A DNA stretch of 64,000 bases from Parcubacteria bacterium C7867-005 (GCA_001189165.1 LFCO01000001.1:10987-74986); one strand, 5' to 3'. Counted from the first letter of the stretch, positions 4,888 through 34,833 are shown. Notes: generated by a model from the sequence alone, not told the origin. Program-made: numbers and translations.

Positions 4888-7116
4888 ATGATAAAAGCTT
4901 TGAGACAAAAAACTCTCGTCAAAATCACCACATTTTATATGTTGGTGGCCTTATCTTTAGGAAGTTTCCCCTTTGATGTGTTCGCCGATACCCCTACGAT
5001 CACACTCCTTGCGAATGGACAGAGTTCTCTGACCCTATCTGGTCCAACCGAATCCTTTACGATCACCCTAAGCACTGCGAATCCTGCAGATATTTGTACT
5101 CAAACATCTCCTATAAATTCAGGAATTTCTTCCTCTTCTAGTGAAAACATAGATCCAAGTCATCCATTTTATCCACCTGCTGGTGGCAGTACCACCTTTT
5201 CTGTCACCTGTGATGATGGGGCCGGACTCACTGCTTCTGCGAGTGTCACCGTCTCTCTGCCACCAGCACCGGCTCCACTACCCACAGTAGACCTGACCGT
5301 AAATGGCTCAAATGGACCTGTCACCCTTAACTCTGGAGACACCTATACATATTCTTGGAATTCAACAAACTCCACCTCCTGTGAACAGACTTCACCGGCC
5401 ACTTCCGGCATTGCTCTTTCAGGATCTAGTGCAACGATCGATTCCAGTAATCCTTTCTATCCATCAACCACCACTCCGGTAACTCTCACCATGACCTGTA
5501 CAGATGGCACTAACACAGCGAGCGACTCTGTGACAGTAAACCTCTCAAGCGGAGGAGGCTCTACGCCGACTTCTCCTACAATAGACCTGACCGTAAATGG
5601 CTCAAATGGACCCGTTGTTTTGAGCACCGGCAACACCTATACATATTCATGGAATTCATCTAACGCTACGTCCTGCCGAGAGACCTCTCCACTGTTCTCT
5701 GGAACCTCTCTATTTGGTACCAGTGCGGTTATAGATTCAAGCCACCCTTTCTATCCTTCTGTGGGTTCACCCGTCACCATCACTATCGAATGTACTGACG
5801 GAGCTGTTACTGTAAGTGACTCTGTCGTGGTTAGCCTCTCAAGCGGAGGTGGAAATCCAAATCCAACCACTCCTACTGTGGATATCAAGGCGAATGGTTC
5901 TGACGGTCCGGTCACCCTCAATTCTGGTGATACCTATACATATTCTTGGACATCGGCTAATGCTACTTCTTGTTTACAGACAGCTCCTATAAATGCGGGT
6001 GTTTCTGCTACAGGTACAAGTGCGGTTATAGACTCAAACAATACTGATCTTTATCCATTGGTAAACGCACCAGTCACCCTCACTATCACCTGTACAGATG
6101 GCACTAACACAGCGAGCGACTCTGTGACAGTAAACCTCTCAAGCGGAGGAGGGAATCCAAGTACCCCACCAGGGGATGATGACGACAATGGTGGTGGAGG
6201 AGGGGGAGGCAGACGCAGGTCAACACCCCCTGCGACAGACACACGCTCTTGCTTGTGGTTAAGGGATTATATGAGGATTGATTTTCAGAACGACCAGATA
6301 GAGGTTATGAAGCTCCAGACTTTCCTAAAGGACATGATGGGTTACAGTGGAGTCACCGTCACTGGTACCTTCGATCAGGGAACATTTGATGCTGTATCCG
6401 CTTTCCAGATGCAATATGAGGCAGATATCCTCACTCCATGGGGTCACACAGCTCCAACAGGTTATGTTTATATACTAACCCTCAAGAAGGTTAATGAGAT
6501 TTTCTGCCAGAGAGCCTTCCCTATAACAGACTCACAAGAATTAGAGATAATCGCCTTCAGAGCTCTGCTCCAGAGTCTCAGGGATAGGGGATTTGAGGTC
6601 GGAAATACGCCTGACGGCACGGTCCTCACGCCTCCAGAGGGAGCAACAACCACTCCGCCGGAGATACCGACCGTCGGTCAAGGACAAAATTTACGGAATC
6701 TGGCCTCAGCCATATTCACACTCCCAACAGATCTGGGCGACTTCATGCAGTGCCTATACGAGTGGTTACTCATAGTAATTGTCCTTTATATCTTGGGAAG
6801 TGTCCTTAAAGATGTCCTTTATAAGGATCTCCCAGAGAATAGTCGAAAGAGATTCTTTGTGAAGTGGATAACAATATTAGCTGGCCTCGTCATCTCTATC
6901 GTATTGGCTCTCATATTTGGCGAGCTATGTATTATCTTCCCACTCGCCCTGTCATTCCTAGTGGCACTTATGTGGATTCTCACCAGCAAGAATCATGACT
7001 CGATCAGAGTCTCAGTCAAATCTTGGTACATCGTCCTCATGGCAAGATCTAAGTCTTTCTTCAATAAGGCAAACAGACCAAAGGAGATAGAAGCACCAAA
7101 GATTCCTAAAAACTAA
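4888..7116 (+). CDS. large secreted/cell-surface protein: signal peptide, 4 tandem Ig-like repeats (~95 aa), Gly-rich linker, peptidoglycan-binding (PG_binding_1-like) domain, C-terminal 3-TM anchor
   Basis: Repeated motif TVNGSNGPVTLNSGDTYTYSWNS..SC..TSP x4; PGBD signature LQTFLKDMMGYSGVTVTGTFDQGTFDAVSAFQ; GGGGGGGRRR linker; hydrophobic C-terminus. Confidence 0.7.
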   Translation: MIKALRQKTLVKITTFYMLVALSLGSFPFDVFADTPTITLLANGQSSLTLSGPTESFTITLSTANPADICTQTSPINSGISSSSSENIDPSHPFYPPAGGSTTFSVTCDDGAGLTASASVTVSLPPAPAPLPTVDLTVNGSNGPVTLNSGDTYTYSWNSTNSTSCEQTSPATSGIALSGSSATIDSSNPFYPSTTTPVTLTMTCTDGTNTASDSVTVNLSSGGGSTPTSPTIDLTVNGSNGPVVLSTGNTYTYSWNSSNATSCRETSPLFSGTSLFGTSAVIDSSHPFYPSVGSPVTITIECTDGAVTVSDSVVVSLSSGGGNPNPTTPTVDIKANGSDGPVTLNSGDTYTYSWTSANATSCLQTAPINAGVSATGTSAVIDSNNTDLYPLVNAPVTLTITCTDGTNTASDSVTVNLSSGGGNPSTPPGDDDDNGGGGGGGRRRSTPPATDTRSCLWLRDYMRIDFQNDQIEVMKLQTFLKDMMGYSGVTVTGTFDQGTFDAVSAFQMQYEADILTPWGHTAPTGYVYILTLKKVNEIFCQRAFPITDSQELEIIAFRALLQSLRDRGFEVGNTPDGTVLTPPEGATTTPPEIPTVGQGQNLRNLASAIFTLPTDLGDFMQCLYEWLLIVIVLYILGSVLKDVLYKDLPENSRKRFFVKWITILAGLVISIVLALIFGELCIIFPLALSFLVALMWILTSKNHDSIRVSVKSWYIVLMARSKSFFNKANRPKEIEAPKIPKN
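5290..6170 (+). repeat. DNA-level tandem repeats (~290-bp period) inside the surface protein gene
   Basis: Near-identical stretches e.g. gtaaatggctcaaatggacc (5301, 5592) and gcgagcgactctgtgacagtaaacctctcaagcggagga (5518, 6112). Confidence 0.65.
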
Positions 7117-9801: not shown

Positions 9802-9873
9802 TGACCCTACCGGGAGTCGAACCCGGCTTTAAAGCTTGAAAAGCTTTCGTCCTAACCGATAGACGATAGGGCC
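9802..9873 (-). tRNA. tRNA-Glu (anticodon TTC)
   Basis: Minus-strand cloverleaf: acceptor GGCCCTA/TAGGGTC (one GU), anticodon stem AAAGC/GCTTT, loop TTTTCAA, T-arm CCGGGTTCGACTCCCGG. Confidence 0.85.
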
Positions 9874-9944
9874 ATAAATGCCGAAATATAGTAACATTTT
9901 TGGCCAAAAAGGCAAAAAATGCTATAGTCCACCGAGGTTTGTAT

Positions 9945-10031
9945 GGAAGAGTGGCTGAGTGGTTGAAGGCACCGGTTTCGAAAACCGGCAGGCTCGTAAG
10001 GGTCTCGAGAGTTCAAATCTCTCCTCTTCCG
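9945..10031 (+). tRNA. tRNA-Ser (anticodon CGA), class II with long variable arm
   Basis: Acceptor GGAAGAG/CTCTTCC, anticodon stem-loop CCGGT-TTCGAAA-ACCGG, T-arm GAGAGTTCAAATCTCTC, discriminator G. Confidence 0.85.
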
Positions 10032-25403: not shown

Positions 25404-25472
25404 AATATTTTAAATATAAAAAGATAGGCCCCGGCAGTACTACTGCTAGGGCCTGAGTCGGCGCCTCGCCGA

Positions 25473-25916
25473 CTACCGGCGCGTGATGACCATGTTCTGC
25501 GTGACGAGCTCGTCCCTCCCGCCGTTGCAGGAGATGACGATCCTCGTCTGCTTGCTCGCGGCCGAGGGGTACCACCGATGCGACGGACCGATCTCGATCG
25601 GCTTCATGTCGGTCGGGACCTTGAAGGTGTCGCCGCCGGCGTTGATCCAGCATTCGTACGCGTACTCGGTCACGAGACCGATCACGAAGGTCTTGCCCTC
25701 CGCGACCTTGTAGAACTTCTCCTCGTTGCCCATCTCGTCCCGGACCGCGTTCGGCGCGATCGGATTCGCATCGGTGTCGATGGTGAGACCCTCGGAGGTC
25801 ACGGTCATCTTGAGGATGGTGACGCTCTCCGTCTGCGCGGCGACCGTGTTCATGATCGGCGCGAAGAGGAAGGTCGCGAGGAGGACGAGGAACTGTCCGA
25901 ACCGGCGGGTGTGCAT
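25473..25916 (-). CDS. GC-rich secreted hypothetical protein (signal peptide)
   Basis: MHTRRFGQFLVLLATFLFAPIMNTVAAQ SP; balanced composition, unlike the overlapping Arg/Asp-rich ORFs in other frames. Confidence 0.5.
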   Translation of the reverse strand: MHTRRFGQFLVLLATFLFAPIMNTVAAQTESVTILKMTVTSEGLTIDTDANPIAPNAVRDEMGNEEKFYKVAEGKTFVIGLVTEYAYECWINAGGDTFKVPTDMKPIEIGPSHRWYPSAASKQTRIVISCNGGRDELVTQNMVITRR

Positions 25917-26050
25917 GGAGCCTCCGTTCTGGTGGGTGGGAGCAGGAGTCTGCCGAGGAGTTCAGCAAACTTCTGGTAAGTAAATTACAAAAATATTAAA
26001 GATTTGTCAAACACCATAATTCGTTGTCTTTATTTTGCTATACTTAGTAC

Positions 26051-26584
26051 ATGATAAGTTCTCCAGAGAAGAATGTTTCTGAGTTTGGTTTTATGCCCGG
26101 TCAGAAAGTTGCTGATTTTGGTTCGGGTGCCGGCCACTATGTCTTTGTATTATCCAAAGTACTTGGGCCAACTGGCAGGGTCTATGCAGTAGATTTAAAC
26201 GAAGATTTATTAGTTCGCCTGGTCAAGGAAGCAGACAGTATGAGCGCAGACAATGTCCGGGTTATAGAAGGGGATGTTGAAACTGTGCGTGGCACTGAAT
26301 TGAAAGATGAGATACTAGATGGGGTTCTGTTCTCGAATATGCTCTCGAGCCTCTCATCTATAGATGCTGCGCTCACGGAGGCAGTGAGGATACTAAAGAA
26401 AGGGGGGAGGGTGTGTGTGGTGGATTGGAAAGACTCGGGTTTGTTTGAGGCCGAACAGTCCAAAACTAAACGCAAGATGGTCACAGAGTCAGATGCCAGA
26501 AACCTCTTAGCCAAAGCCGGTCTTATGTTTGTAAAATCTTTTGATACTGGGGATCACCACTACGGTCTTATTTTTAAAAAATAG
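26051..26584 (+). CDS. class I SAM-dependent methyltransferase
   Basis: VADFGSGAGHY glycine-rich SAM motif I; YAVDLNEDLL motif II. Confidence 0.75.
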   Translation: MISSPEKNVSEFGFMPGQKVADFGSGAGHYVFVLSKVLGPTGRVYAVDLNEDLLVRLVKEADSMSADNVRVIEGDVETVRGTELKDEILDGVLFSNMLSSLSSIDAALTEAVRILKKGGRVCVVDWKDSGLFEAEQSKTKRKMVTESDARNLLAKAGLMFVKSFDTGDHHYGLIFKK

Positions 26585-26598
26585 TATACTTTATACAA

Positions 26599-27882
26599 AT
26601 GTCTAAATTCCAAATCATCCTGCTCTCCGTTTTCGGAATTTTTATAGTAGCCGCGGTACTTCTGTTTTCTCTATCCAGAGGTTCTGACCAAACAAATGCC
26701 AAAATAGTTGTTTGGGGCAGTATCCCCACATACGATTTTGATAATTTCTTGAATACGTCAGGGATCACAGAGAACAAAACAATCTCCATAGATTATGTAG
26801 AGAAGTCCAAGGATTCTTTTGATACACAACTTACAGAGGCGCTTGCGGTCGGCGGCGGTCCGGATCTAGTCATCTTGCCTGTATCCAAAATTTGGAAAAA
26901 CAGAAATAAACTAATCCTCATACCTAAAGAGAGTGTCAGCCCACAAGTATTCACTCAGACATTTATAGAAGAAGGGGAATTGTTGATGACCGATGCGGGT
27001 GCCTATGCTCTCCCCATCCTGGTCGACCCACTTGTTTTGTATTGGAACAGAGATATTTTTTCTGGAGAAGCTTTGGTTGCTCCGCCAGTGTATTGGGATG
27101 AGATCTACTCCTATGCAGAGAGGTTTTTGAAAAAAGATAATGCAGGGAATATCCAGCAAAGCGCGATTGCTTTAGGAGAAACCAAAAATATCCCTAATGC
27201 CAAAAGTATTTTGTCTCTGCTGTTGCTCCAGGCAGGTACAGATATAACTGGATTTGTCGGCGGAGAACTGCGTTCAGTGCTCGGGCAAGGGTTTAATCTA
27301 CCCCTCGTACCCTCACATGCAGCTTTGGACTTCTATACTCAGTTCTCTAATCCCGCCAAACCATTCTATTCATGGAATCAATCTTTGCTTTCTGCACAGA
27401 CAACCTTCACCTCTGGGGATAGTGCGATGTACCTCGGTTTCGCAAGCGAACTCCCATTGATAAAAGCTAAAAGTCCAACTCTAAATCTGGGTATCTCTAA
27501 AGTTTTGCAGTCCAGGGTATCTGGTAAGACGATCACTTTTGGTGACATGTATGCGGTTGCTATAGTTAGAAATACTAGAAATCCACAAGCGTCGCTCGCA
27601 GGCGCCTTCTCTCTTATATCCAAAGAAAATGCCTTAGAGCTCTCAAAGATCATGGGCCTTGCCCCCGCTCGAAGAGATCTGCTCGCAGAGAAACCAACAG
27701 ACGAAAGTTTATCTGTGTTTTATGACGCAGCGATACAATCGAGAGGGTGGGTCGATCCAGATGACAGGCGTTCTAGTGAGATTTTTATTGATATGATAGA
27801 AGCAGTAACTTCTGGTAGGGCGAGGACGCAAGAGGCAGTAAATAAGGCAAACGACGAACTCGAGGCTCTAATAAATCAATGA
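26599..27882 (+). CDS. membrane-anchored extracellular solute-binding-protein-like protein
   Basis: N-terminal TM then a ~400-aa periplasmic-type domain with a GGGPDLV-type motif; resemblance to ABC SBP family 1 judged by eye. Confidence 0.45.
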   Translation: MSKFQIILLSVFGIFIVAAVLLFSLSRGSDQTNAKIVVWGSIPTYDFDNFLNTSGITENKTISIDYVEKSKDSFDTQLTEALAVGGGPDLVILPVSKIWKNRNKLILIPKESVSPQVFTQTFIEEGELLMTDAGAYALPILVDPLVLYWNRDIFSGEALVAPPVYWDEIYSYAERFLKKDNAGNIQQSAIALGETKNIPNAKSILSLLLLQAGTDITGFVGGELRSVLGQGFNLPLVPSHAALDFYTQFSNPAKPFYSWNQSLLSAQTTFTSGDSAMYLGFASELPLIKAKSPTLNLGISKVLQSRVSGKTITFGDMYAVAIVRNTRNPQASLAGAFSLISKENALELSKIMGLAPARRDLLAEKPTDESLSVFYDAAIQSRGWVDPDDRRSSEIFIDMIEAVTSGRARTQEAVNKANDELEALINQ

Positions 27883-28271
27883 AAAAACTCAGTACGCACA
27901 TACTAGCTTTGTTTTTGATCCTCAGTGTTTTTGCTATCCCCGCTGTCTCATTCGCACAGAATGACTTGGTCCCATGTGGGAATCCAGGACAGGCTGAATG
28001 TGGATTCAATGATCTGATCAAGTTGGTGATAAATATTATCAACACATTGATCACTTACTCTACTTATATTGCTGTAGCTGTCTTCTGTTATGCGGGGATT
28101 ATGCTCATGACCGCTGGAGGAGACAAGGGCGCCTTGGACAAGGCCAAGAAGATACTGGGCAGTGTGGTCAAGGGGTATGTGTGGATACTCATCGCTTGGG
28201 TAGTGGTTTATACTATTATGAACACCCTCATAGACGGTGAAGGGTTCTCCCTACTTGGGGATCCTCAATAA
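27879..28271 (+). CDS. TrbC/VirB2-like 'pilin' family protein (SP + 2 TM), paralog 1
   Basis: SP with AQ cleavage site, two hydrophobic helices flanking GGDKGALDKAKK; architecture shared with the five downstream genes. Confidence 0.55.
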   Translation: MKKLSTHILALFLILSVFAIPAVSFAQNDLVPCGNPGQAECGFNDLIKLVINIINTLITYSTYIAVAVFCYAGIMLMTAGGDKGALDKAKKILGSVVKGYVWILIAWVVVYTIMNTLIDGEGFSLLGDPQ

Positions 28272-28272
28272 A

Positions 28273-28749
28273 ATGAAAAAAATATTCACAAACTCTCTTT
28301 CTATAGTATTTCTTGCAGTAATCGTTTTTGCACCAACTTATTTAGCCTTAGCCCAAGCCACGGCACCAACCAACACCACGACTGCCCCTGCACCCACAAA
28401 CACAACAACAGCACCAAGACCAACCAACACTACCACCGTGCCACCACGACCTACTAGCGCTACCGGGGGAGAGATTAATATACCCAACCCATTTGGCAGA
28501 AGTGGGGGATCACTCACTGAACTTTTTGAAACTATAGTTAACAGCATTATCTTACCTATCGGTGGGGTGCTCGCTGTGCTGGCTTTCGTTTATTCTGGTT
28601 TTCTGTATGTCACCGCCCAAGGTAATCCGGGCAAGATTGAGGAAGCAAACAGAGCCCTACTCTATTCGGCCATAGGTACCGCAGTGCTCCTGGGCTCGTG
28701 GGTGATAGCCAATGTGATCGGAGGCACGATCGATCAGCTGAAATCCTAA
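28273..28749 (+). CDS. TrbC/VirB2-like pilin family protein, paralog 2, with Thr-rich APTNTTTAP x3 spacer
   Basis: Same SP + 2-TM architecture; low-complexity T/P repeat; start MKKIF at 28273. Confidence 0.55.
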   Translation: MKKIFTNSLSIVFLAVIVFAPTYLALAQATAPTNTTTAPAPTNTTTAPRPTNTTTVPPRPTSATGGEINIPNPFGRSGGSLTELFETIVNSIILPIGGVLAVLAFVYSGFLYVTAQGNPGKIEEANRALLYSAIGTAVLLGSWVIANVIGGTIDQLKS

Positions 28750-28758
28750 AACAAACCA

Positions 28759-29040
28759 ATGCCAGAAAATTTTGCAGAACTTGTAGCCATTTTCATAAAT
28801 CTAATTCTGACTGCCATACCAGTACTCATCGCTCTGGCATTCATGGTGTTTCTTTATGGTCTGGTTCAGTTTATTTCGAAGGCCGGTGATGAAAAAAGTC
28901 ATGGTGAGGGTAAAAATATCATGAAACTCGGGCTGATAGGGTTATTCGTGATGATGTCTTTCTTCGGGATAGTTGAATTCTTTGTAAGGGATTTCGGTGC
29001 CACGAGTTTTGGTATTCCATTGTTACCACCAGAAAGATAG
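28759..29040 (+). CDS. TrbC/VirB2-like pilin family protein, paralog 3
   Basis: 2 TM; motif FISKAGDEKSHGEGKNIMKLGLIGLFVMMSF shared with paralog 4. Confidence 0.55.
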   Translation: MPENFAELVAIFINLILTAIPVLIALAFMVFLYGLVQFISKAGDEKSHGEGKNIMKLGLIGLFVMMSFFGIVEFFVRDFGATSFGIPLLPPER

Positions 29041-29058
29041 GATAAAATAAATATAAAT

Positions 29059-29460
29059 ATGAAAAAATATAAACAATTCGTACTCATTTCCCTTATCCTC
29101 CTATCACCATCAATCGCCCTTGCTCAGTTTGACGGAGTGAATGGTTTGATCAGGGGTGTCGGAGGGATCATAGAGAGCCTCACCCTCTTGGCTTCGGGCC
29201 TCGCTCTACTCTATTTCTTCTTTGGTCTGGCCAAATTTATCTCCAAGTCGGGTGATGAAAAGAGTCATAGTGAGGGCAAAAATATCATGCAATGGGGTCT
29301 ACTTGCTCTGTTTGTGATGATGTCTGTATGGGGTATCATCGCTTTCTTTCAAAGAGATCTAGGACTACCAGTAACGGTTCCCAATAATACCGCAAATCAA
29401 GAGCCAATCGTTATTACTCCAGAAATGATGAACGCTTTTAGAGATCCGGCTTTCAGATAA
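29059..29460 (+). CDS. TrbC/VirB2-like pilin family protein, paralog 4
   Basis: SP ...SIALAQ; FISKSGDEKSHSEGKNIMQWGLLALFVMMSVWG. Confidence 0.55.
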   Translation: MKKYKQFVLISLILLSPSIALAQFDGVNGLIRGVGGIIESLTLLASGLALLYFFFGLAKFISKSGDEKSHSEGKNIMQWGLLALFVMMSVWGIIAFFQRDLGLPVTVPNNTANQEPIVITPEMMNAFRDPAFR

Positions 29461-29565
29461 GCACAAGATTCAACAACCCCTATACACTATTGTTTTCCTC
29501 TGTGGTCGGGTATTATTAATATGTACCAACCATAGGTATATTAAAATTAACGCTTACAAAGTTAA

Positions 29566-29913
29566 ATGAAAAAGTTAATACTTTTAGCAGTCGCTTTTGT
29601 TCCTTCTTTTGCATTCGCACAGTCTCTAGGTAACGTAGAGACATTTATCCGTTCGATCGGTAGATTGGTTAACCTAGCATTGCCTATCGTCGTGGCACTT
29701 GCTCTCCTCGGTTTCTTCTACGGTTTGATGAAGTTCATATTCGCAGCTGACGATGAAGATGCTCGCAAATCTGCCAAGGACATCATGATCTACGGCGTCA
29801 TCGCTCTATTCGTGATGGTGTCTGTTTGGGGTTTGGTAGGATTCGTCGGGAACGCACTCGGTATCCAGCAAGGCCAGAACAGTGGAAACATCCCTCGGGT
29901 TCAGGGCCTATAA
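29566..29913 (+). CDS. TrbC/VirB2-like pilin family protein, paralog 5
   Basis: SP ...AFAQS; FIFAADDEDARKSAKDIMIYGVIALFVMVSVWG. Confidence 0.55.
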   Translation: MKKLILLAVAFVPSFAFAQSLGNVETFIRSIGRLVNLALPIVVALALLGFFYGLMKFIFAADDEDARKSAKDIMIYGVIALFVMVSVWGLVGFVGNALGIQQGQNSGNIPRVQGL

Positions 29914-29930
29914 TCTCGGTCTAGTCTCTG

Positions 29931-30197
29931 ATGATTACCGAATTTCTCGACAAGATAAATCAGTTCGTACTTAACCCGATCATCACACTTCTGTTCGCTG
30001 TTGCTTTCATCGTCTTTCTGTTCGGAGTGTTTCAGTTCGTCAAGGATGCCAAAGATGGTGATACAAAGGGTGAGGGCAAAAAAAAGATTATGTACGGATT
30101 ATTTGGTATGTTCATCATGTTCAGTGCCTATGGTCTCATTAGAATTGTCTTAGATACTTTTGGGATAGATAACCCACAAGATTACATCTCTCTCTAG
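29931..30197 (+). CDS. TrbC/VirB2-like pilin family protein, paralog 6
   Basis: 2 TM; FVKDAKDGDTKGEGKKKIMYGLFGMFIMFSAYG. Confidence 0.5.
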   Translation: MITEFLDKINQFVLNPIITLLFAVAFIVFLFGVFQFVKDAKDGDTKGEGKKKIMYGLFGMFIMFSAYGLIRIVLDTFGIDNPQDYISL

Positions 30198-30290
30198 ATA
30201 AAAAGAAAATCACTCCGAGCAAATGCGAGGGGTGACTTTTTTGTACAAGAAAGGGCGAGAGGGGATACCTCTCGCCCTGTCCACCAAAGC

Positions 30291-31214
30291 TCACTTCACC
30301 TCGAAGAGGTGGAGCTTGAGTGGAGCACTTTCCACACCTTCTCTGGTCTTGAACGACAGGAGCTTGCCCCGGTGATTCTCCACCGAGTCGATCGTGACCT
30401 TTGCGGTGTCGAACCACTGTTCGAGAGAGTACCCGTGTGGAACCTGCACCACCTTCGGACTGCCTGTCCTTAGGGTGCCGGTGCTGGTGAATTCCTCCAC
30501 GACCGGTTCGCGGTGAGCAACGACGGACGCGGTGGTACTTACACCAAAACCCCCGATGAGCTTCACCCACGGTCTCCAGAGGAAGGAGAAGAAGAAGAGT
30601 ACGAAGGTGAGCCACATCAGGTTTCTCGCCTTCTTGAACGACGGGCTCAGGTTGCTGTTCACGACCACCGTGAAGGCGATGAGCACGTGCCCGACCCAGA
30701 ACAGGGTGTTGCCCCGGAGCCACTTGTAGGCTTCCGGACTGCCCCAGCTCGCGATCCAGTGGAACGCAATCACGAATCCGAGGACGATCAGGTACACGGT
30801 CCATTGGGGCTTCCAGGTGAGTCCACCCGTGCCCCTCTTGTCCCATACCTTCTTGATTCCCCAGGTGATGAGTGCCAACCCAGCGAGTCCTGCAAGAACT
30901 GAGAGGCTGATCCAGAGCCACTTGAATGAGCCGAGGCTGATGCCCTCGCCGATCGCAGAGCTCATCATCCATGCGATGATGATCACTGCGAGTACGAGCA
31001 AGGCCAGGAAGACCCTGACCCTGCCCTTGGTCCAGCGAACCTTCTTCGGGGAAGCGCTCGTTGTCGGAGCACTGCCTGCGGCAGCGCGATTCCTGAATTT
31101 GTTCACAGTCCATTCGACCATGAGCTTCACTTCTGCATACCTGTTCCCGAACCACTGTCCGACCTTCGTCGAACCGGTGTTTCTGTTGGTGTACCACTGT
31201 CCGATCTTTCCCAT
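30291..31214 (-). CDS. GC-rich hypothetical polytopic membrane protein (4-5 TM)
   Basis: 307 aa; GC-rich; Trp-rich TM helices; no motif recognised. Confidence 0.4.
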   Translation of the reverse strand: MGKIGQWYTNRNTGSTKVGQWFGNRYAEVKLMVEWTVNKFRNRAAAGSAPTTSASPKKVRWTKGRVRVFLALLVLAVIIIAWMMSSAIGEGISLGSFKWLWISLSVLAGLAGLALITWGIKKVWDKRGTGGLTWKPQWTVYLIVLGFVIAFHWIASWGSPEAYKWLRGNTLFWVGHVLIAFTVVVNSNLSPSFKKARNLMWLTFVLFFFSFLWRPWVKLIGGFGVSTTASVVAHREPVVEEFTSTGTLRTGSPKVVQVPHGYSLEQWFDTAKVTIDSVENHRGKLLSFKTREGVESAPLKLHLFEVK

Positions 31215-31343
31215 GGGTATAACCTCGGTGGTGTGTGTTCAAATCAATGTGCAGGTTTGTCTTATTATATCATATAAATATCACTTTTGTCAAGTATAAA
31301 AATAGGGCCAAGCGACTTGTCGTTTGGCCCTTCCCACAATGCA

Positions 31344-32387
31344 TTACTTCGTACCACCGACCACCGGGAGCGCACCACTGCCGTAGACGACGGTGGTTGC
31401 CACTCCGTTCTTCTCGTGTGCGGTTGCCCACCTGTTGGCAGGCTCGTTCGCGAGCTTCATGGTTGGCTCAGTCACACGAGTGTACAGATCAGCCGCTGCG
31501 TCGTTCAGGAGCATCTTCTCCTTCTTCTCAGCTTCAGCGTTGGTGATTCTGACCCTCGCCTGCGCCTCGGCTTGCACCTGCAGTTCGAGGATCGCTTCTT
31601 GCTTCGGATCCATCGTTGGTGACAGCATGCTCATCGACTTGATCTTGAGACCCAGCTGTTCAAGGGCCTCTGCGTGGAAAGCATCATTCTTCATGATTGC
31701 ATCCACAAGGTCCTGCTTGAGCTTGCCAGAGTTGGCACCACCACGATAGTCTGCGGCGTTGTTCCCACCGACGATGTTACTCACGATGCTCTCGATCATC
31801 CCCTCGAGGTACGCGAGTGGGTTTGACACCCGCAACACAGATCGAATGGGGAAGACCCGCTCGAAGATCAAGTTGAACCTGAATCCGAGCTTGAGCTGGT
31901 CCTTGGTCTCGAGGCCTTCAAGATTGGCGACGAGATCCCCGGAGTAGTAGATGAACTTCGGGAGTTGGTCGCTGTTCTCGACAACCCGGTTCCCGTCCGC
32001 ATCCCTTTTGTTGCTGAAGCGGAGGTGAACGTCCGAGTTAGTCCGCACGCTGGGGAACAAACTGATCCACTCGACGCCGAGCAGTTTATACAGAAGCTTG
32101 TCGTGTCTAGGATCGACCTCCATCCCATCGGGCAGATCCTTAACCTCCCAGTTCATCGGATCTGGGTCAGTCTTGTCGATGAACTTGCCGGGGATGGCAT
32201 GTCGGAGGTCGACAATGGCACCACCACCCTGGGTGGTCTTGCCGTCCTCCTTGTCGTCACTGACGATCAGAGCCAAGGCGTTGGCCGAGGTGATCAGCCA
32301 GAGACGGCCGATCCTGCCGAACGACCTGATACCCACGGCAATGCCGAGGATGATCAGGAAGAGGATGAAAATGATGGCGCCGAACAT
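31344..32387 (-). CDS. SPFH/band-7 (prohibitin/flotillin-like) membrane protein
   Basis: N-terminal TM and SPFH core; C-terminal Ala/Glu-rich coiled coil ILELQVQAEAQARVRITNAEAEKKEK; start at MFGAIIF (32387) supported by RBS AAGGAG 7 nt upstream. Confidence 0.65.
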   Translation of the reverse strand: MFGAIIFILFLIILGIAVGIRSFGRIGRLWLITSANALALIVSDDKEDGKTTQGGGAIVDLRHAIPGKFIDKTDPDPMNWEVKDLPDGMEVDPRHDKLLYKLLGVEWISLFPSVRTNSDVHLRFSNKRDADGNRVVENSDQLPKFIYYSGDLVANLEGLETKDQLKLGFRFNLIFERVFPIRSVLRVSNPLAYLEGMIESIVSNIVGGNNAADYRGGANSGKLKQDLVDAIMKNDAFHAEALEQLGLKIKSMSMLSPTMDPKQEAILELQVQAEAQARVRITNAEAEKKEKMLLNDAAADLYTRVTEPTMKLANEPANRWATAHEKNGVATTVVYGSGALPVVGGTK

Positions 32388-32503
32388 CCGATGTCTCCTT
32401 GTGGCAAAGCCACGAGAGTAGTAATGCAATCAACGAGCATCTAGTTCTGGCGGAATTTTATCACAAAACGACACAGAAGTCAAGTTGGAATTGAGCTTAG
32501 TTT

Positions 32504-32813: not shown

Positions 32814-34409
32814 ATGAGAAAAAAGCTTTTCATGAAAGTCGTGGTTCTTTCGGTCGTTTATTTTTCTACTGCTTGGGCAGGACTTCAGCTTGGGGCTGTG
32901 AGTGGTTTTGCTACATTCGTTTGGCCACCTACGGGGATCGCTCTTGCTGCTCTTTTGATCTTTGGCTATCGTCTATGGCCGGGCATTTTCCTTGCCGCCT
33001 TTCTTGTGAACCTGGTGACAGGTGCTCCGGTATTTGTCGCTCTAGCTATCGGTGCGGGTAACACGCTAGAGGCAGTTTTTGGAAAATTCATATTGCACAA
33101 GGTTGGTTTTGATGTCAGCCTCGAACACCGAAGAGATGTTCTTGCTTATATCATCTACGGTGCACTGCTGAGTACTATCGTAAGCGCTTCGATCGGCAGC
33201 GGTGTACTTTGGTCGAGTAGCATTGTCTCATCAGTGGATCTACTCCCAACATGGATTGCTTGGTGGGTGGGGGATATTCTGGGTGCACTGATTATAGGGA
33301 GCTTCATCCTCTCTTTTAGGAAGATGTTTGTCTCCAGGCAGATAATATTTCCAAGCAGAAGGAGGGTCATCGAAGCGGTTCTCCTTTGTGTTGCTCTGAT
33401 CATCTTTAACTCTTTTGTGTTTTTCAATGACGGAACCTTTTCTCAATCAAATGCGTCTCTTGTCTATCTTATATTTCCACTACTCATTTGGGCGGCTTTG
33501 AGGTTCGAGGTCGCTGGTGCCACTATCGCTGTTTTTATCACTTCGGCTCTGGCCATCTGGGGGACGGTGTCGGGCACTGGTCCGTTTGTGACCGATTCGA
33601 TCAGCAGCAGCCTTTTCTCTTTACAGGTATTCATGGGTTCGGTGAGTGTGACTATCCTGGTGTTGTCAGCGATTGTGGAAGAGAGTGCCAGAGCTTACAG
33701 AGCTCTGGAGAAAGCAGATAAATCCAAATCAGAGTTTGTCTCCATTGCATCACACCAGCTCCGTACGCCACTCTCTACCGTGAAGTGGTATGTCCGAACC
33801 TTGCTTGATAGTAAGTTGGGCAAGGTTTCTGATAAACAAAATGAGTATCTTTCTGAACTTAATAATGCTAACGAACGCATGATCAAGCTAGTGAACACTC
33901 TTTTGGATGTTTCCAAAATAGAGCTGGGTATGTTCAAGGTCAAACCAATGTTTTCTGTCGTAGTTAGGAAAATAGTGGATGAAGTTGTCGATGAATTTCA
34001 ACCACAAATCACCAAGAAAAAACTACGGCTGGAAAAAGCATACCCCCCAGAAACCTTTTTTGTTAATGCAGATCCATCATTGGTAAAAATTATCTTTCAG
34101 AACTTATTTTCAAACGCCGTAAAGTACTCTTATAAAGGTGGAACCATAAAAGTAACTTTGAAAAACAATACCAAGGAGTGGTTCCTAGAGGTCTCTGACC
34201 AGGGTTGTGGTGTGCCGCAGAGTGATCAGGACAAGATTTTTAATAAATTATTTAGAGGGGAAAATGCTCGCAGTATGGATCCCGAAGGCGGCGGCCTGGG
34301 GTTGTATTTGGTCAGATCGATCACCAAGCAGGTTAACGGGAGGATTTGGTTTGAGTCTGAACTAAACAAAGGTAGCACCTTCCATGTGGCCTTTCATATA
34401 CGCGGGTAG
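32814..34409 (+). CDS. sensor histidine kinase with N-terminal MASE1-like membrane sensor domain
   Basis: ~8 TM N-terminus; HisKA H-box SIASHQLRTPLSTV; HATPase N/G boxes (NLFSNAVKYS, DQGCGVP, GGGLGLYLV). Confidence 0.8.
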   Translation: MRKKLFMKVVVLSVVYFSTAWAGLQLGAVSGFATFVWPPTGIALAALLIFGYRLWPGIFLAAFLVNLVTGAPVFVALAIGAGNTLEAVFGKFILHKVGFDVSLEHRRDVLAYIIYGALLSTIVSASIGSGVLWSSSIVSSVDLLPTWIAWWVGDILGALIIGSFILSFRKMFVSRQIIFPSRRRVIEAVLLCVALIIFNSFVFFNDGTFSQSNASLVYLIFPLLIWAALRFEVAGATIAVFITSALAIWGTVSGTGPFVTDSISSSLFSLQVFMGSVSVTILVLSAIVEESARAYRALEKADKSKSEFVSIASHQLRTPLSTVKWYVRTLLDSKLGKVSDKQNEYLSELNNANERMIKLVNTLLDVSKIELGMFKVKPMFSVVVRKIVDEVVDEFQPQITKKKLRLEKAYPPETFFVNADPSLVKIIFQNLFSNAVKYSYKGGTIKVTLKNNTKEWFLEVSDQGCGVPQSDQDKIFNKLFRGENARSMDPEGGGLGLYLVRSITKQVNGRIWFESELNKGSTFHVAFHIRG

Positions 34410-34428
34410 TATAATTTATATTAATTAC

Positions 34429-34833
34429 ATGCAAGAACCAAAAAAGAAAATTTTGATTATTGAAGACGAGGCGCCCATGCTCCGTGCTCTAGAAGAAGGT
34501 TTTCGCAGAGATGGTTTTGAGACGATATCAGCAGATGAGGGTGGGGCGGGGTTCTCTCTTGCCATAGAAAACAAGCCAGATTTAATTATTTTAGATATTC
34601 TACTTCCGGGCATAGATGGTTTGGCGATGATCAAGAAACTAAGGAGGGACGGAGGTTCTTATGGCAGAGGAGTGCCTGTTATTATCCTGACGAACCTAAG
34701 TCCAGACAGTGAAGAGGTGAATCAGACTATTGCAGCCACTTCTCCCACTTTTTATTTAGTAAAGGCCGATTGGACCGTCGAGGATGTTATCGAAAAGGTA
34801 AAAGCCAGACTCAATCAACCCGCCATACTTTAG
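34429..34833 (+). CDS. single-domain response regulator (CheY-like receiver)
   Basis: KKILIIEDE...DLIILDILLPGIDG (phospho-acceptor Asp)...K; start MQEPKKK at 34429. Confidence 0.75.
   Translation: MQEPKKKILIIEDEAPMLRALEEGFRRDGFETISADEGGAGFSLAIENKPDLIILDILLPGIDGLAMIKKLRRDGGSYGRGVPVIILTNLSPDSEEVNQTIAATSPTFYLVKADWTVEDVIEKVKARLNQPAIL

What the first reader, a model, noticed from the sequence alone, without database searches (positions are those of the whole stretch)
27879..30197. Tandem array of six TrbC/VirB2-like 'pilin' paralogs downstream of a membrane-anchored solute-binding-like protein
Six consecutive same-strand genes (88-170 aa) share one architecture: Sec signal ending A-x-A/Q, a hydrophobic helix, a short charged loop (GDEKSH.EGKNIM or variants) and a second helix. 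Paralogs 3 and 4 share a near-identical loop, and paralog 2 carries an APTNTTTAP x3 Thr/Pro spacer (an O-glycosylation-like linker). This matches the T4SS-pilin-like family expanded in Patescibacteria and implicated in cell-surface and host-interaction structures. Six tandem, diversified copies suggest antigenic or functional diversification. The upstream gene 26599-27882 (TM + ~400-aa extracytoplasmic domain) may belong to the same module.
Basis: partly seen in the sequence, partly recalled or inferred. Interest (0 to 1): 0.55.

Follow-up and report, generated by a model that had tools for sequence, protein, structure and literature searches.

The report
Conserved six-gene T4SS pilin operon
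Six small neighbouring genes in this ultra-small (Patescibacteria) bacterium encode VirB2-like type IV secretion "pilin" proteins, a kind of array already described in this phylum; here it is a fixed, anciently conserved set of six joined to a sugar-binding-like surface protein, not a fast-changing family.

Summary
Six same-strand ORFs (27879-30197) are paralogous two-helix hairpin proteins, and all six match Pfam PF18895 (T4SS_pilin): three above the curated cut-off, two within 1 bit of it, and one at 19 bits whose 32 orthologs all match. One correction: only four of the six have a Sec-type signal peptide; p3 and p6 have none.

The window comes from Parcubacteria bacterium C7867-005 (class Paceibacteria). 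Arrays of 2-11 VirB2-like pilins in Patescibacteria are published (Quiñonero-Coronel 2025), including an essential six-pilin array in Southlakia epibionticum (Wang 2023). The kind is therefore known.

New detail:
- The order p1-p6 and the upstream MalE-fold, membrane-anchored SBP-like gene are conserved in every related locus examined (47/47 close, 5/5 distant, SBP identity down to about 35%).
- Spacing from the SBP gene through p3 is near zero.
- A conserved gap of about 100 nt, promoter-like, precedes p5.
- Orthologs are under purifying selection (median dN/dS 0.11-0.26).

This argues against antigenic diversification and for six non-redundant subunits. No virB4 lies within about 84 kb, although the published survey records VirB4 in this genome. 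The whole gyrA-to-clpB neighbourhood is also syntenic, so the SBP's functional link remains an inference.

The parts
26599..27882 (+). Membrane-anchored MalE-fold solute-binding-like protein (427 aa); the first gene of the conserved SBP-pilin block
   Evidence: PF13416 at 48.9 bits. AF2 pLDDT 88.5 with a TM helix at residues 3-24. Foldseek top hits are oligosaccharide SBPs, TM 0.65-0.82 at 15-18% identity. The stop codon overlaps the p1 start by 4 nt. A pilin array follows it in 47/47 close and 5/5 distant loci. The FQ motif in the TM helix is 90% conserved over 147 cluster representatives.
27879..28271 (+). p1: pilin-like paralog with a signal peptide and an invariant Cys-x(n)-Cys loop before helix 1
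   Evidence: PF18895 19.2 bits and PF04956 19.9 bits, both below cut-off. All 33 orthologs match PF18895 at E<=0.01, best 3.8e-9. C33 and C41 are invariant and the loop between them varies in length.
28273..28749 (+). p2: pilin-like paralog with a signal peptide and a Thr/Pro-rich repeat linker (27-nt x 2.5 repeat at 28364-28430)
   Evidence: PF18895 40.6 bits, above cut-off; PF04956 25.9 bits. TRF. The linker is low-complexity and varies in length in orthologs.
28759..29040 (+). p3: pilin-like paralog without a signal peptide in this clade
   Evidence: PF18895 25.6 bits against a cut-off of 26.6. There is no room for an upstream start. Counterparts in distant lineages do carry a signal peptide.
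29059..29460 (+). p4: pilin-like paralog with a signal peptide and a long C-terminal tail
   Evidence: PF18895 27.1 bits, above cut-off.
29461..29565 (+). Conserved gap of about 100 nt before p5, with a promoter-like element (TTGTTT 29490-29495; TATTAT 29511-29516) and an inverted repeat GTACC-N7-GGTAT
   Evidence: The gap is at least 74 nt in 46/46 six-gene loci, while the other gaps have medians of 1-13 nt. Motif enrichment against random windows: promoter-like 39/45 versus 7%; TACC-N-GGTA 35/45 versus 1.2%. In the window the -35 is weak and the consensus scan did not call it. The hairpin is not thermodynamically unusual (z -0.69).
29566..29913 (+). p5: the window copy that best matches the family model; candidate major subunit
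   Evidence: PF18895 47.9 bits. Its 120 best homologs are 60-79% identical. AF2 model is a helical hairpin, H21-59 and H64-97.
29931..30197 (+). p6: the shortest paralog, without a signal peptide in all lineages examined; always the last gene
   Evidence: PF18895 25.9 bits. It is the last gene in 44 of 47 close loci and in all four distant loci whose array is complete; in those four it lacks a signal peptide. A crude signal-peptide rule scored 12% of its close-locus orthologs as positive. It has the lowest dN/dS of the six, 0.11.
30211..30247 (+). Terminator-like hairpin followed by a T run, ending the operon (read by eye)
   Evidence: Sequence CACTCC-N13-GGGGTG followed by ACTTTTTT. The scan did not list it. 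The adjacent hairpin at 30252-30278, which the scan did call, serves the convergent minus-strand gene.

Best explanation
The six genes encode VirB2/TrbC-type type IV secretion system pilin-like proteins of the Patescibacteria-enriched family PF18895.

Anatomy. Each mature protein is a hairpin of about 65-130 residues: two hydrophobic helices joined by a short charged loop. The loop should face the cytoplasm and both ends the outside. Four are exported with a cleavable Sec signal peptide. p3 and p6 would insert directly.

The six are not interchangeable variants. They are a fixed, ordered, anciently diverged set, and each is kept by purifying selection. That implies a structure of defined mixed composition, or six distinct roles.

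Most likely mechanism (inferred). The proteins form a membrane pool. The VirB4-powered, monoderm-type (MPF-FATA-like) T4SS encoded elsewhere in the genome assembles from this pool a wall-spanning filament or conduit towards a host cell.
- p5, with p6, is the candidate bulk subunit. p5 is among the two most conserved of the six and is preceded by its own promoter-like gap.
- p1 (disulfide loop of variable length) and p2 (variable Thr/Pro/Gly linker) would display variable N-terminal elements on the surface.
- The upstream membrane-anchored MalE-fold protein is co-transcribed and probably translationally coupled. It most likely acts at the same surface structure as a glycan-binding receptor or anchor, rather than feeding a conventional ABC importer.

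Shown here: homology, architecture, operon layout, conservation and mode of selection. Inferred: pilus formation, dependence on VirB4, and the role of the SBP.
For: - Family. PF18895 is the top or joint-top Pfam hit for all six: 47.9, 40.6 and 27.1 bits are above the 26.6 cut-off; 25.9, 25.6 and 19.2 are below it. 33/33 p1 orthologs match PF18895.
- Fold. The AF2 model of p5 is a two-helix hairpin.
- Source. Parcubacteria C7867-005. The published survey lists this genome as VirB4-positive (PMC12102498 Table S1).
- Precedent. 441 arrays of 2-11 VirB2-like pilins have been reported, with mean identity 25%. The six PF18895 pilins SEML1_0014-0019 of S. epibionticum are all essential and lie inside its T4SS cluster.
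- Fixed composition. The order p1-p6 holds in 34/47 loci; the other 13 differ only in p4/p5-like copies (9 carry a seventh gene, 4 have position 4 scoring as p5-like). Positions 1, 2, 5 and 6 are reciprocal best matches between genomes. Median dN/dS is 0.11-0.26, maximum below 0.6.
- Operon. Median gaps are 1, 2, 1, 12, 100 and 13 nt. The conserved gap before p5 is promoter-like. A terminator-like hairpin follows p6.
- SBP. It has a MalE-like fold, is adjacent to the array in 52/52 loci, and has a sequence-conserved TM helix.
Against: - No VirB4, VirB6, VirD4 or PrgI gene lies in the 64-kb window or in 10-kb extensions. Linkage to a T4SS therefore rests on family homology and a published table, not on my own scan.
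- Three of the six score below Pfam's cut-off. All PF04956 and NF045849 hits are below cut-off.
- The profile search against PDB sequences gave no significant hit; the pKM101 pilin TraM scored E 0.63. The fold search was non-specific.
- The whole neighbourhood, from Lactamase_B_3 and gyrA to rbfA, infB and clpB, is syntenic in all distant loci. SBP adjacency could therefore be inherited gene order rather than function.
- No pilus has been seen in any Patescibacterium as far as the papers I read report.
Confidence: 0.72

Rival explanations
1. The tandem copies are a diversifying family, by antigenic or host-range variation as proposed for the VirB2 paralogs of Bartonella and Anaplasma, with copies turning over quickly under positive selection.
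For: Within-array identity is low, 17-49%. p1 has a Cys-Cys loop of variable length and p2 a variable low-complexity linker. 9 of 47 loci carry a seventh p4/p5-like copy. The published survey offers this idea for Patescibacteria.
Against: Order and identity of the positions are conserved between genomes whose SBPs are only about 35% identical. Each orthogroup has median dN/dS of 0.11-0.26 and mean pairwise identity of 52-67%, similar to the SBP at 62%. No near-identical recent duplicates occur in the window. In S. epibionticum all six are individually essential.
Confidence: 0.08
2. The six hairpin proteins never form an extracellular pilus. They are integral-membrane parts of a complex, either the channel of the monoderm-type T4SS or, together with the SBP-like protein, a T4SS-independent surface uptake or adhesion module.
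For: The array is unlinked to virB4 over at least 36 kb on one side and at least 44 kb on the other. The best NCBIfam hits are to the Mycoplasma ICE family NF045849, from a wall-less monoderm, though below cut-off. Gram-positive T4SSs generally lack pili. The SBP's TM helix is conserved in sequence, as expected for contacts inside the membrane. Six proteins with two helices each give 12 TM helices, the number found in an ABC importer's permease pair; this is arithmetic, not evidence.
Against: The homology is to pilin families. No ATPase or permease gene sits in the operon. Four members carry cleavable signal peptides and extracellular tails or linkers, which suit a surface-exposed polymer better than a buried channel.
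Confidence: 0.15
3. The SBP-like gene is functionally independent of the pilins. It is an ordinary substrate-binding protein of a sugar ABC importer encoded elsewhere, and it sits next to the array only because gene order in this chromosomal region is conserved in Paceibacteria.
For: The fold and the closest structures are canonical oligosaccharide SBPs. Sources annotate relatives as sugar or glycerol-3-phosphate SBPs. gyrA, a methyltransferase, rbfA, infB and clpB are just as syntenic.
Against: There is a 4-nt overlap or a gap of 0-26 nt to p1 in 46 loci. No insertion ever separates the SBP from p1, whereas the gyrA-SBP interval and the region after p6 are repeatedly broken. No ABC permease or ATPase partner lies in about 84 kb. 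The TM anchor carries a conserved FQ motif.
Confidence: 0.3

Closest known systems
Essential six-pilin array SEML1_0014-0019 of Southlakia epibionticum ML1 (Saccharimonadia), Wang et al. 2023, PMC10633639
   Same: Both have six tandem, same-strand, sequence-divergent PF18895 proteins of about 100-185 aa in a Patescibacterium. In S. epibionticum all six are essential, which fits the non-redundancy inferred here from conservation.
   Different: The S. epibionticum array lies inside the T4SS cluster, next to a VirB6-like gene, VirB4 and PrgI, and no SBP is listed there. Here no T4SS core gene lies within about 84 kb, and an SBP-like gene heads the operon. I could not test whether the two sets of six are orthologous.
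VirB2-like pilin arrays of Patescibacteria catalogued by Quiñonero-Coronel et al. 2025, PMC12102498
   Same: The survey used the same Pfam models (PF18895, PF04956), found the same size range (2-11 genes) and the same low within-array identity (mean 25%, maximum 54%). Its dataset includes this very genome, GCA_001189165.1.
   Different: The survey describes arrays as most abundant in Microgenomatia and Saccharimonadia, and proposes adaptation to different hosts. The text and the supplementary tables held do not mention an SBP, the gyrA-linked locus, positional orthology or the internal promoter-like gap.
VirB2/TrbC/TraA conjugative pilins of diderm T4SSs (PF04956; T-pilus, F-pilus, pKM101 TraM)
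   Same: All are small proteins with a signal peptide, two hydrophobic helices and a short charged loop. PF04956 gives weak hits to p1, p2 and p6.
   Different: All PF04956 scores are below cut-off. Two members lack signal peptides. The host is a monoderm. There are six distinct conserved paralogs instead of one major pilin. The genes are not adjacent to virB3 or virB4.
Mbov_0395 family pilin-like conjugal transfer protein of Mycoplasma ICEs (NCBIfam NF045849)
   Same: It is the best NCBIfam match for all six, with E down to 4.8e-8, covering nearly the whole 80-position model. It is also a two-helix protein from a monoderm T4SS.
   Different: Scores are 9-33 bits against a cut-off of 40, so these are not members. 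The Mycoplasma gene is single-copy and lies in a mobile element.

Membership tests
Pfam PF18895 T4SS_pilin | Whole-protein score at or above the gathering cut-off (26.6 bits) | tested here: met
   p5 47.9, p2 40.6 and p4 27.1 bits meet it. p6 25.9, p3 25.6 and p1 19.2 fall short. All 33 p1 orthologs match at E<=0.01. Precomputed hits for the same genes appear.
Pfam PF18895 T4SS_pilin | Two hydrophobic helices joined by a short polar loop, about 70 residues | tested here: met
   Alignment of the six. AF2 hairpin H21-59/H64-97 with core pLDDT of 83-89.
VirB2/TrbC conjugative pilin (PF04956) | Score at or above the gathering cut-off (27.9 bits) | tested here: not met
   The best is p2 at 25.9 bits; p1 19.9 and p6 19.5; there are no hits for p3-p5.
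VirB2/TrbC conjugative pilin (PF04956) | Cleavable N-terminal signal peptide | tested here: inconclusive
   Read from the sequence, p1, p2, p4 and p5 have MKK + hydrophobic stretch + AxA|Q; p3 and p6 do not. No SignalP was available, only a crude rule.
VirB2/TrbC conjugative pilin (PF04956) | Encoded within or next to a T4SS core cluster (virB3/virB4/virB6) | tested here: not met
   No such Pfam domain was found in the ORFs scanned, or among the called genes of the 10-kb extensions. VirB4 is reported elsewhere in the genome, but only in a published table.
VirB2/TrbC conjugative pilin (PF04956) | Polymerises into an extracellular pilus | not testable with these tools
   Needs EM, cryo-ET or surface proteomics.
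Patescibacterial VirB2-like pilin array (Quiñonero-Coronel 2025; Wang 2023) | At least 2 PF18895/PF04956 genes in tandem in a Patescibacteria genome that also encodes VirB4 | tested here: met
   Six in tandem. Genome identity. VirB4 = Yes in Table S1; this rests on the literature, not my own scan.
Type IV pilus (T4P) pilins | Class III signal peptide (G|F/M-T-L-I/L-E) and a PilB/PilT ATPase nearby | tested here: not met
   None of the six N-termini carries the motif (sequences). No T4P ATPase was found in the ORFs scanned; the PilM_2 hit belongs to FtsA.
ABC-transporter substrate-binding protein, family 1 (PF13416/PF01547) | Two-lobed periplasmic-binding-protein type II fold | tested here: met
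   PF13416 48.9 bits. Foldseek E 5e-22 and TM 0.74/0.82 to 2zyo.
ABC-transporter substrate-binding protein, family 1 (PF13416/PF01547) | Cognate permease and ATPase genes in the same operon or genome | tested here: inconclusive
   None was seen in about 84 kb around the gene or in the +-8-10 kb flanks of the related loci whose called genes were read. The rest of the genome could not be scanned.

The most novel reading that the evidence does not exclude
The SBP-like protein is an integral partner of the pilin-based apparatus. On this reading, the operon conserved across the Paceibacteria lineages sampled encodes a receptor-plus-conduit module. A membrane-anchored oligosaccharide-binding protein recognises a host envelope glycan, or captures a host-derived solute, and hands it to a T4SS-pilin structure made of six distinct subunits. 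That would be an SBP-dependent import or attachment device that works without an ABC permease.
Probability: 0.12. Interest if true: 0.8.

Novelty: new member of a known kind. Interest (0 to 1): 0.35.

Why it matters
The function of the Patescibacterial T4SS is an open question. It is essential in the one species tested, it lacks a relaxase, and reviewers speculate that it takes up host molecules.

This locus does not change the picture of what the arrays are. It adds three testable points for the largest class, Paceibacteria:
- The six pilins are a fixed set of orthologs rather than variable copies.
- They are transcriptionally organised as 4+2, with a separate promoter-like element before the penultimate, well-conserved pilin (p5).
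- They are always headed by a sugar-binding-type surface protein.

If that protein really works with the pilins, it would give a first handle on what the apparatus recognises or transports.

Tried and rejected
- Sequence profile of p5 orthologs against PDB: nothing significant. The pKM101 pilin TraM ranked second at E 0.63.
- Foldseek of the p5 model against PDB: only generic helical hairpins, none at E<=0.001. The A. pernix conjugation pilus ranked 30th. This neither supports nor refutes the assignment.
- Table S3 of PMC12102498, which would give pilin-VirB4 proximity for this genome: it is truncated in the held copy.
- RNA folding of the p4-p5 gap: not more stable than shuffles (z -0.69), so I do not claim a structured RNA.
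- The consensus promoter scan did not call the conserved gap element in the window, because its -35 matches only 3 of 6 positions.
- Rfam found only tRNAs.
I used orthologs instead.
- A type IV pilus reading: rejected, since there is no class III signal motif and no PilB/PilT.


Full report
**1. What is in the sequence**

Region 27879-30197 holds six consecutive + strand ORFs: p1 27879-28271 (130 aa), p2, p3 28759-29040 (93), p4 29059-29460 (133), p5 29566-29913 (115) and p6 29931-30197 (88).

The mechanical ORF list gives p2 as 28237-28749 (170 aa, GTG start, overlapping p1 by 35 nt). An ATG at 28273 lies one base after the p1 stop and gives MKKIF... (158 aa). Independent gene calls on the source contig use that start.

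The six align as N-terminal segment, hydrophobic helix, short charged loop, hydrophobic helix, variable tail. Pairwise identity is 17-49%. They fall into two subgroups: p1/p2 (33%) and p3-p6 (23-49%).

An HMM built from the six finds nothing else among 780 ORFs of at least 40 aa in the window; the next hit has E 0.68. The array is therefore real, local and not a chance pattern.

The near-identical p3/p4 loops and the three APTNTTTAP-like repeats of p2 are confirmed. The repeats are a 27-nt x 2.5 tandem repeat at 28364-28430.

One stated feature is wrong for two members. p3 and p6 have no signal peptide. Their reading frames open immediately after the preceding stop codon, so no longer N-terminus is possible.

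**2. Family**

Pfam gives PF18895 (T4SS_pilin) as the top or joint-top hit for all six. The scores are 47.9 (p5), 40.6 (p2), 27.1 (p4), 25.9 (p6), 25.6 (p3) and 19.2 bits (p1), against a cut-off of 26.6. PF04956 (TrbC/VirB2) gives weaker hits, all below its cut-off.

p1 is the weakest case, but all 33 members of its orthogroup match PF18895 at E<=0.01, the best at 3.8e-9.

NCBIfam's best match for all six is the Mycoplasma ICE 'Mbov_0395 pilin-like conjugal transfer protein' (E down to 4.8e-8). These are again below cut-off.

AlphaFold2 models p5 as a helical hairpin (H21-59, H64-97; mean pLDDT 76). Structure and sequence searches against the PDB were uninformative, as expected for a hairpin.

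None of the six has a type IV pilin class III leader.

**3. Source and genomic setting**

The SBP-like protein and p5 are identical to proteins of Parcubacteria bacterium C7867-005. The window lies on a 288-kb contig of GCA_002396705.1.

The window is ordinary chromosome. It carries gyrA, ftsZ/ftsA, topA, dprA, serS, infB, clpB, relA/spoT and 13 tRNAs.

No VirB4, VirB6, VirD4, PrgI or type IV pilus ATPase domain was found in any ORF scanned in the window. None was found in 10-kb extensions past either end. The ORFs at 57.3-63.5 kb were checked only through the precomputed annotation.

The published survey of 3,035 Patescibacteria genomes lists GCA_001189165.1 (C7867-005, Paceibacteria, 563,550 bp) as VirB4-positive (PMC12102498 Table S1). 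This rests on that table, not on a scan of mine.

**4. Comparison across genomes**

I fetched 80 metagenomic loci with an SBP alignment (SBP identity 49-61%), plus a Zambryskibacteria locus and one GTDB locus.

Every one of the 47 loci with at least 2.6 kb of downstream sequence has six (38 loci) or seven (9 loci) pilin ORFs directly after the SBP gene. No pilin hit lies anywhere else in the flanks.

Classifying each ORF by its best match to the window copies gives the order p1-p2-p3-p4-p5-p6 in 34 of 47 loci. The other 13 differ only in p4/p5-like copies: 9 carry a seventh gene and 4 have position 4 scoring as p5-like. Between genomes, positions 1, 2, 5 and 6 are each other's best matches.

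To go further out, I searched the 50%-identity representative library with the SBP profile. That gave 1570 clusters at E<=1e-30; the best 150 are full-length, 34-40% identical to the window protein, and the N-termini I read have a TM helix.

I took one representative at 35% identity as a new query and looked up five of its relatives on long contigs. Their source labels include Campbellbacteria, Wolfebacteria, 'Pacebacteria' and Parcubacteria.

All five show Lactamase_B_3, a small gene, gyrA, a methyltransferase, the SBP gene and then pilin genes. Four hold complete arrays of six or seven, each with a gap of about 90-145 nt before the penultimate pilin. The fifth (L092) runs off its contig end after three pilin genes. 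In the four complete arrays, positions 1, 2, penultimate and last again match p1, p2, p5 and p6.

In these distant lineages p1 and the third pilin carry signal peptides. The loss in p3 here, and in p1 of many Zambryskibacteria-like relatives, is therefore secondary. p6 lacks one everywhere.

**5. Selection**

I computed Nei-Gojobori dN/dS for orthologous pairs with dS of 0.1-1.5. Medians are 0.21 (p1), 0.21 (p2), 0.14 (p3), 0.26 (p4), 0.18 (p5), 0.11 (p6) and 0.09 (SBP). No pair exceeds 0.6.

Mean pairwise identity within the orthogroups is 52-67%, comparable to the SBP at 62%.

With the fixed order, this contradicts rapid or antigenic diversification. It fits the finding that all six pilins of S. 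epibionticum are individually essential.

Variation is concentrated in two places:
- the loop between the two invariant cysteines of p1, which varies widely in length;
- the low-complexity linker of p2.

**6. Operon anatomy**

The SBP stop overlaps the p1 start (ATGA). Across 46 six-gene loci the median gaps are:

| Junction | Median gap (nt) |
|---|---|
| SBP to p1 | 1 |
| p1 to p2 | 2 |
| p2 to p3 | 1 |
| p3 to p4 | 12.5 |
| p4 to p5 | 100 (never below 74) |
| p5 to p6 | 13 |

The p4-p5 gap carries three conserved elements: a TTG...N...GTATnAT element, an ATACC-N-GGTAT inverted repeat, and further upstream a G.GGATA[AG] motif. All are far commoner there than in random 115-nt windows of the same loci: 39/45 versus 7%, 35/45 versus 1.2%, and 36/45 versus 3.7%.

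In the window the corresponding elements are TTGTTT (29490-29495), TATTAT (29511-29516) and GTACC-N7-GGTAT. The upstream motif is not preserved in the window.

The simplest reading is an internal promoter serving p5-p6. It is not shown to be active.

A hairpin followed by a T run comes after p6 at about 30211-30247. The stronger hairpin at 30252-30278 belongs to the convergent gene.

**7. The SBP-like protein**

It matches PF13416. It is a distant relative of oligosaccharide-binding proteins by sequence (best 4r9f, E 6e-13).

Its AF2 model (pLDDT 88.5) superposes on cyclo/maltodextrin-, sucrose-, trehalose/maltose- and sophoro-oligosaccharide-binding proteins, with TM-scores of 0.65-0.82 at 15-18% identity.

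It has an N-terminal TM helix rather than a lipobox. That helix is as conserved as the globular part, with F4 and Q5 at 90% and F23 at 88% over 147 cluster representatives. This suggests specific contacts within the membrane; that is an inference.

No ABC permease or ATPase partner was seen in the operon, in about 84 kb around it, or in the flanks of the related loci whose gene calls I read.

Against a functional link, the whole neighbourhood is syntenic across these lineages: upstream gyrA, and downstream rbfA, infB, an aminotransferase, a trypsin-like protease and clpB. Adjacency alone is therefore weak evidence.

The stronger points are the near-zero spacing and the absence of any insertion between the SBP gene and p1. 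By contrast, the gyrA-SBP interval is repeatedly broken: methyltransferase present or absent, a Y1 transposase in L003, and a 650-nt GC-rich insert here. So is the region after p6.

**8. Relation to what is known**

Wang et al. 2023 described a series of essential predicted pilins inside the T4SS cluster of S. epibionticum. Their tables show six PF18895 proteins, SEML1_0014-0019.

Quiñonero-Coronel et al. 2025 catalogued 441 arrays of 2-11 VirB2-like pilins in 383 assemblies, with mean identity 25% and maximum 54%. They suggested host-range versatility. Their dataset includes this genome.

A 2025 review calls the possible pilus of these monoderm T4SSs an exciting open issue.

The finding as written is therefore a further example of a published kind.

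I did not find the following in the paper or its held supplements, or in full-text searches:
- the SBP gene at the head of the operon;
- the gyrA-linked locus conserved across the Paceibacteria lineages sampled;
- the positional orthology and purifying selection;
- the 4+2 transcriptional layout.

**9. Verdict**

- The family assignment is supported.
- 'Antigenic diversification' is not supported.
- Membership of the SBP in the module is supported at the level of the operon but unproven functionally.
- Interest is modest, because the class of feature is known. The SBP link is the part worth following.

Noticed in passing
Related loci, p4-p5 gap: L088:13194-13339, L090:13027-13186, L003 about 9868-10006; window 29461-29489: Just upstream of the promoter-like element before p5, most relatives carry G.GGATA[AG] (for example GTGGATAA). 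This is the complement of the DnaA-box consensus TTATCCACA. L088 has a perfect TTATCCACA and L090 has TAATCCACA. The motif occurs in 36/45 gaps against 3.7% of control windows. It is not preserved in the window itself. Regulation by DnaA is a guess on my part. The published survey notes that T4SS genes often sit near dnaA.
   Followed up: partly
window 25404-26050: There is an interval of about 650 nt between gyrA and the methyltransferase. GC is 0.49 in the surrounding 2-kb window, against about 0.44 typical. It is absent from relatives, where this gap is about 80-170 nt. It holds a minus-strand ORF, 25473-25916 (147 aa), with a signal-peptide-like N-terminus and no Pfam match.
   Followed up: partly
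window 30291-32429 (minus strand): This segment has GC 0.54 against about 0.44 typical. It holds a 307-aa multi-TM protein with no Pfam match and an SPFH/Band 7 protein, convergent on the pilin operon. The SPFH gene recurs downstream in 15/27 relatives. The 307-aa gene did not appear among the 25 most widely shared flank clusters.
   Followed up: partly
window 26051-26584: A class I SAM methyltransferase (177 aa) ends 14 nt before the SBP start. It sits at the same place in all five distant Paceibacteria loci but in only 7 of 27 close ones, where gyrA directly precedes the SBP gene. Whether it belongs to the operon is unknown.
   Followed up: partly
window 26599-27882, residues about 292 and 303: The window's SBP has Ser and Leu at two positions where 98% of 147 family representatives have Asn and Pro. 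This could be lineage-specific change in an otherwise strongly conserved stretch.
   Followed up: no
window 27879-30197 (all six pilins): The best NCBIfam match for all six is a Mycoplasma ICE pilin-like protein family, NF045849, with E down to 4.8e-8 but below cut-off. This hints that PF18895-like proteins have relatives in monoderm (MPF-FATA) elements. The published survey states that such systems lack VirB2 homologs.
   Followed up: no
window 32814-34833: A MASE1 histidine kinase and a response regulator lie about 2.6 kb downstream of the array, beyond two tRNA genes. They were not among the flank clusters conserved in relatives.
   Followed up: no
window 4888-7116: A 742-aa protein has a weak peptidoglycan-binding domain and sub-threshold StcE beta-sandwich and PKD-like hits. 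It may be a large surface protein.
   Followed up: no
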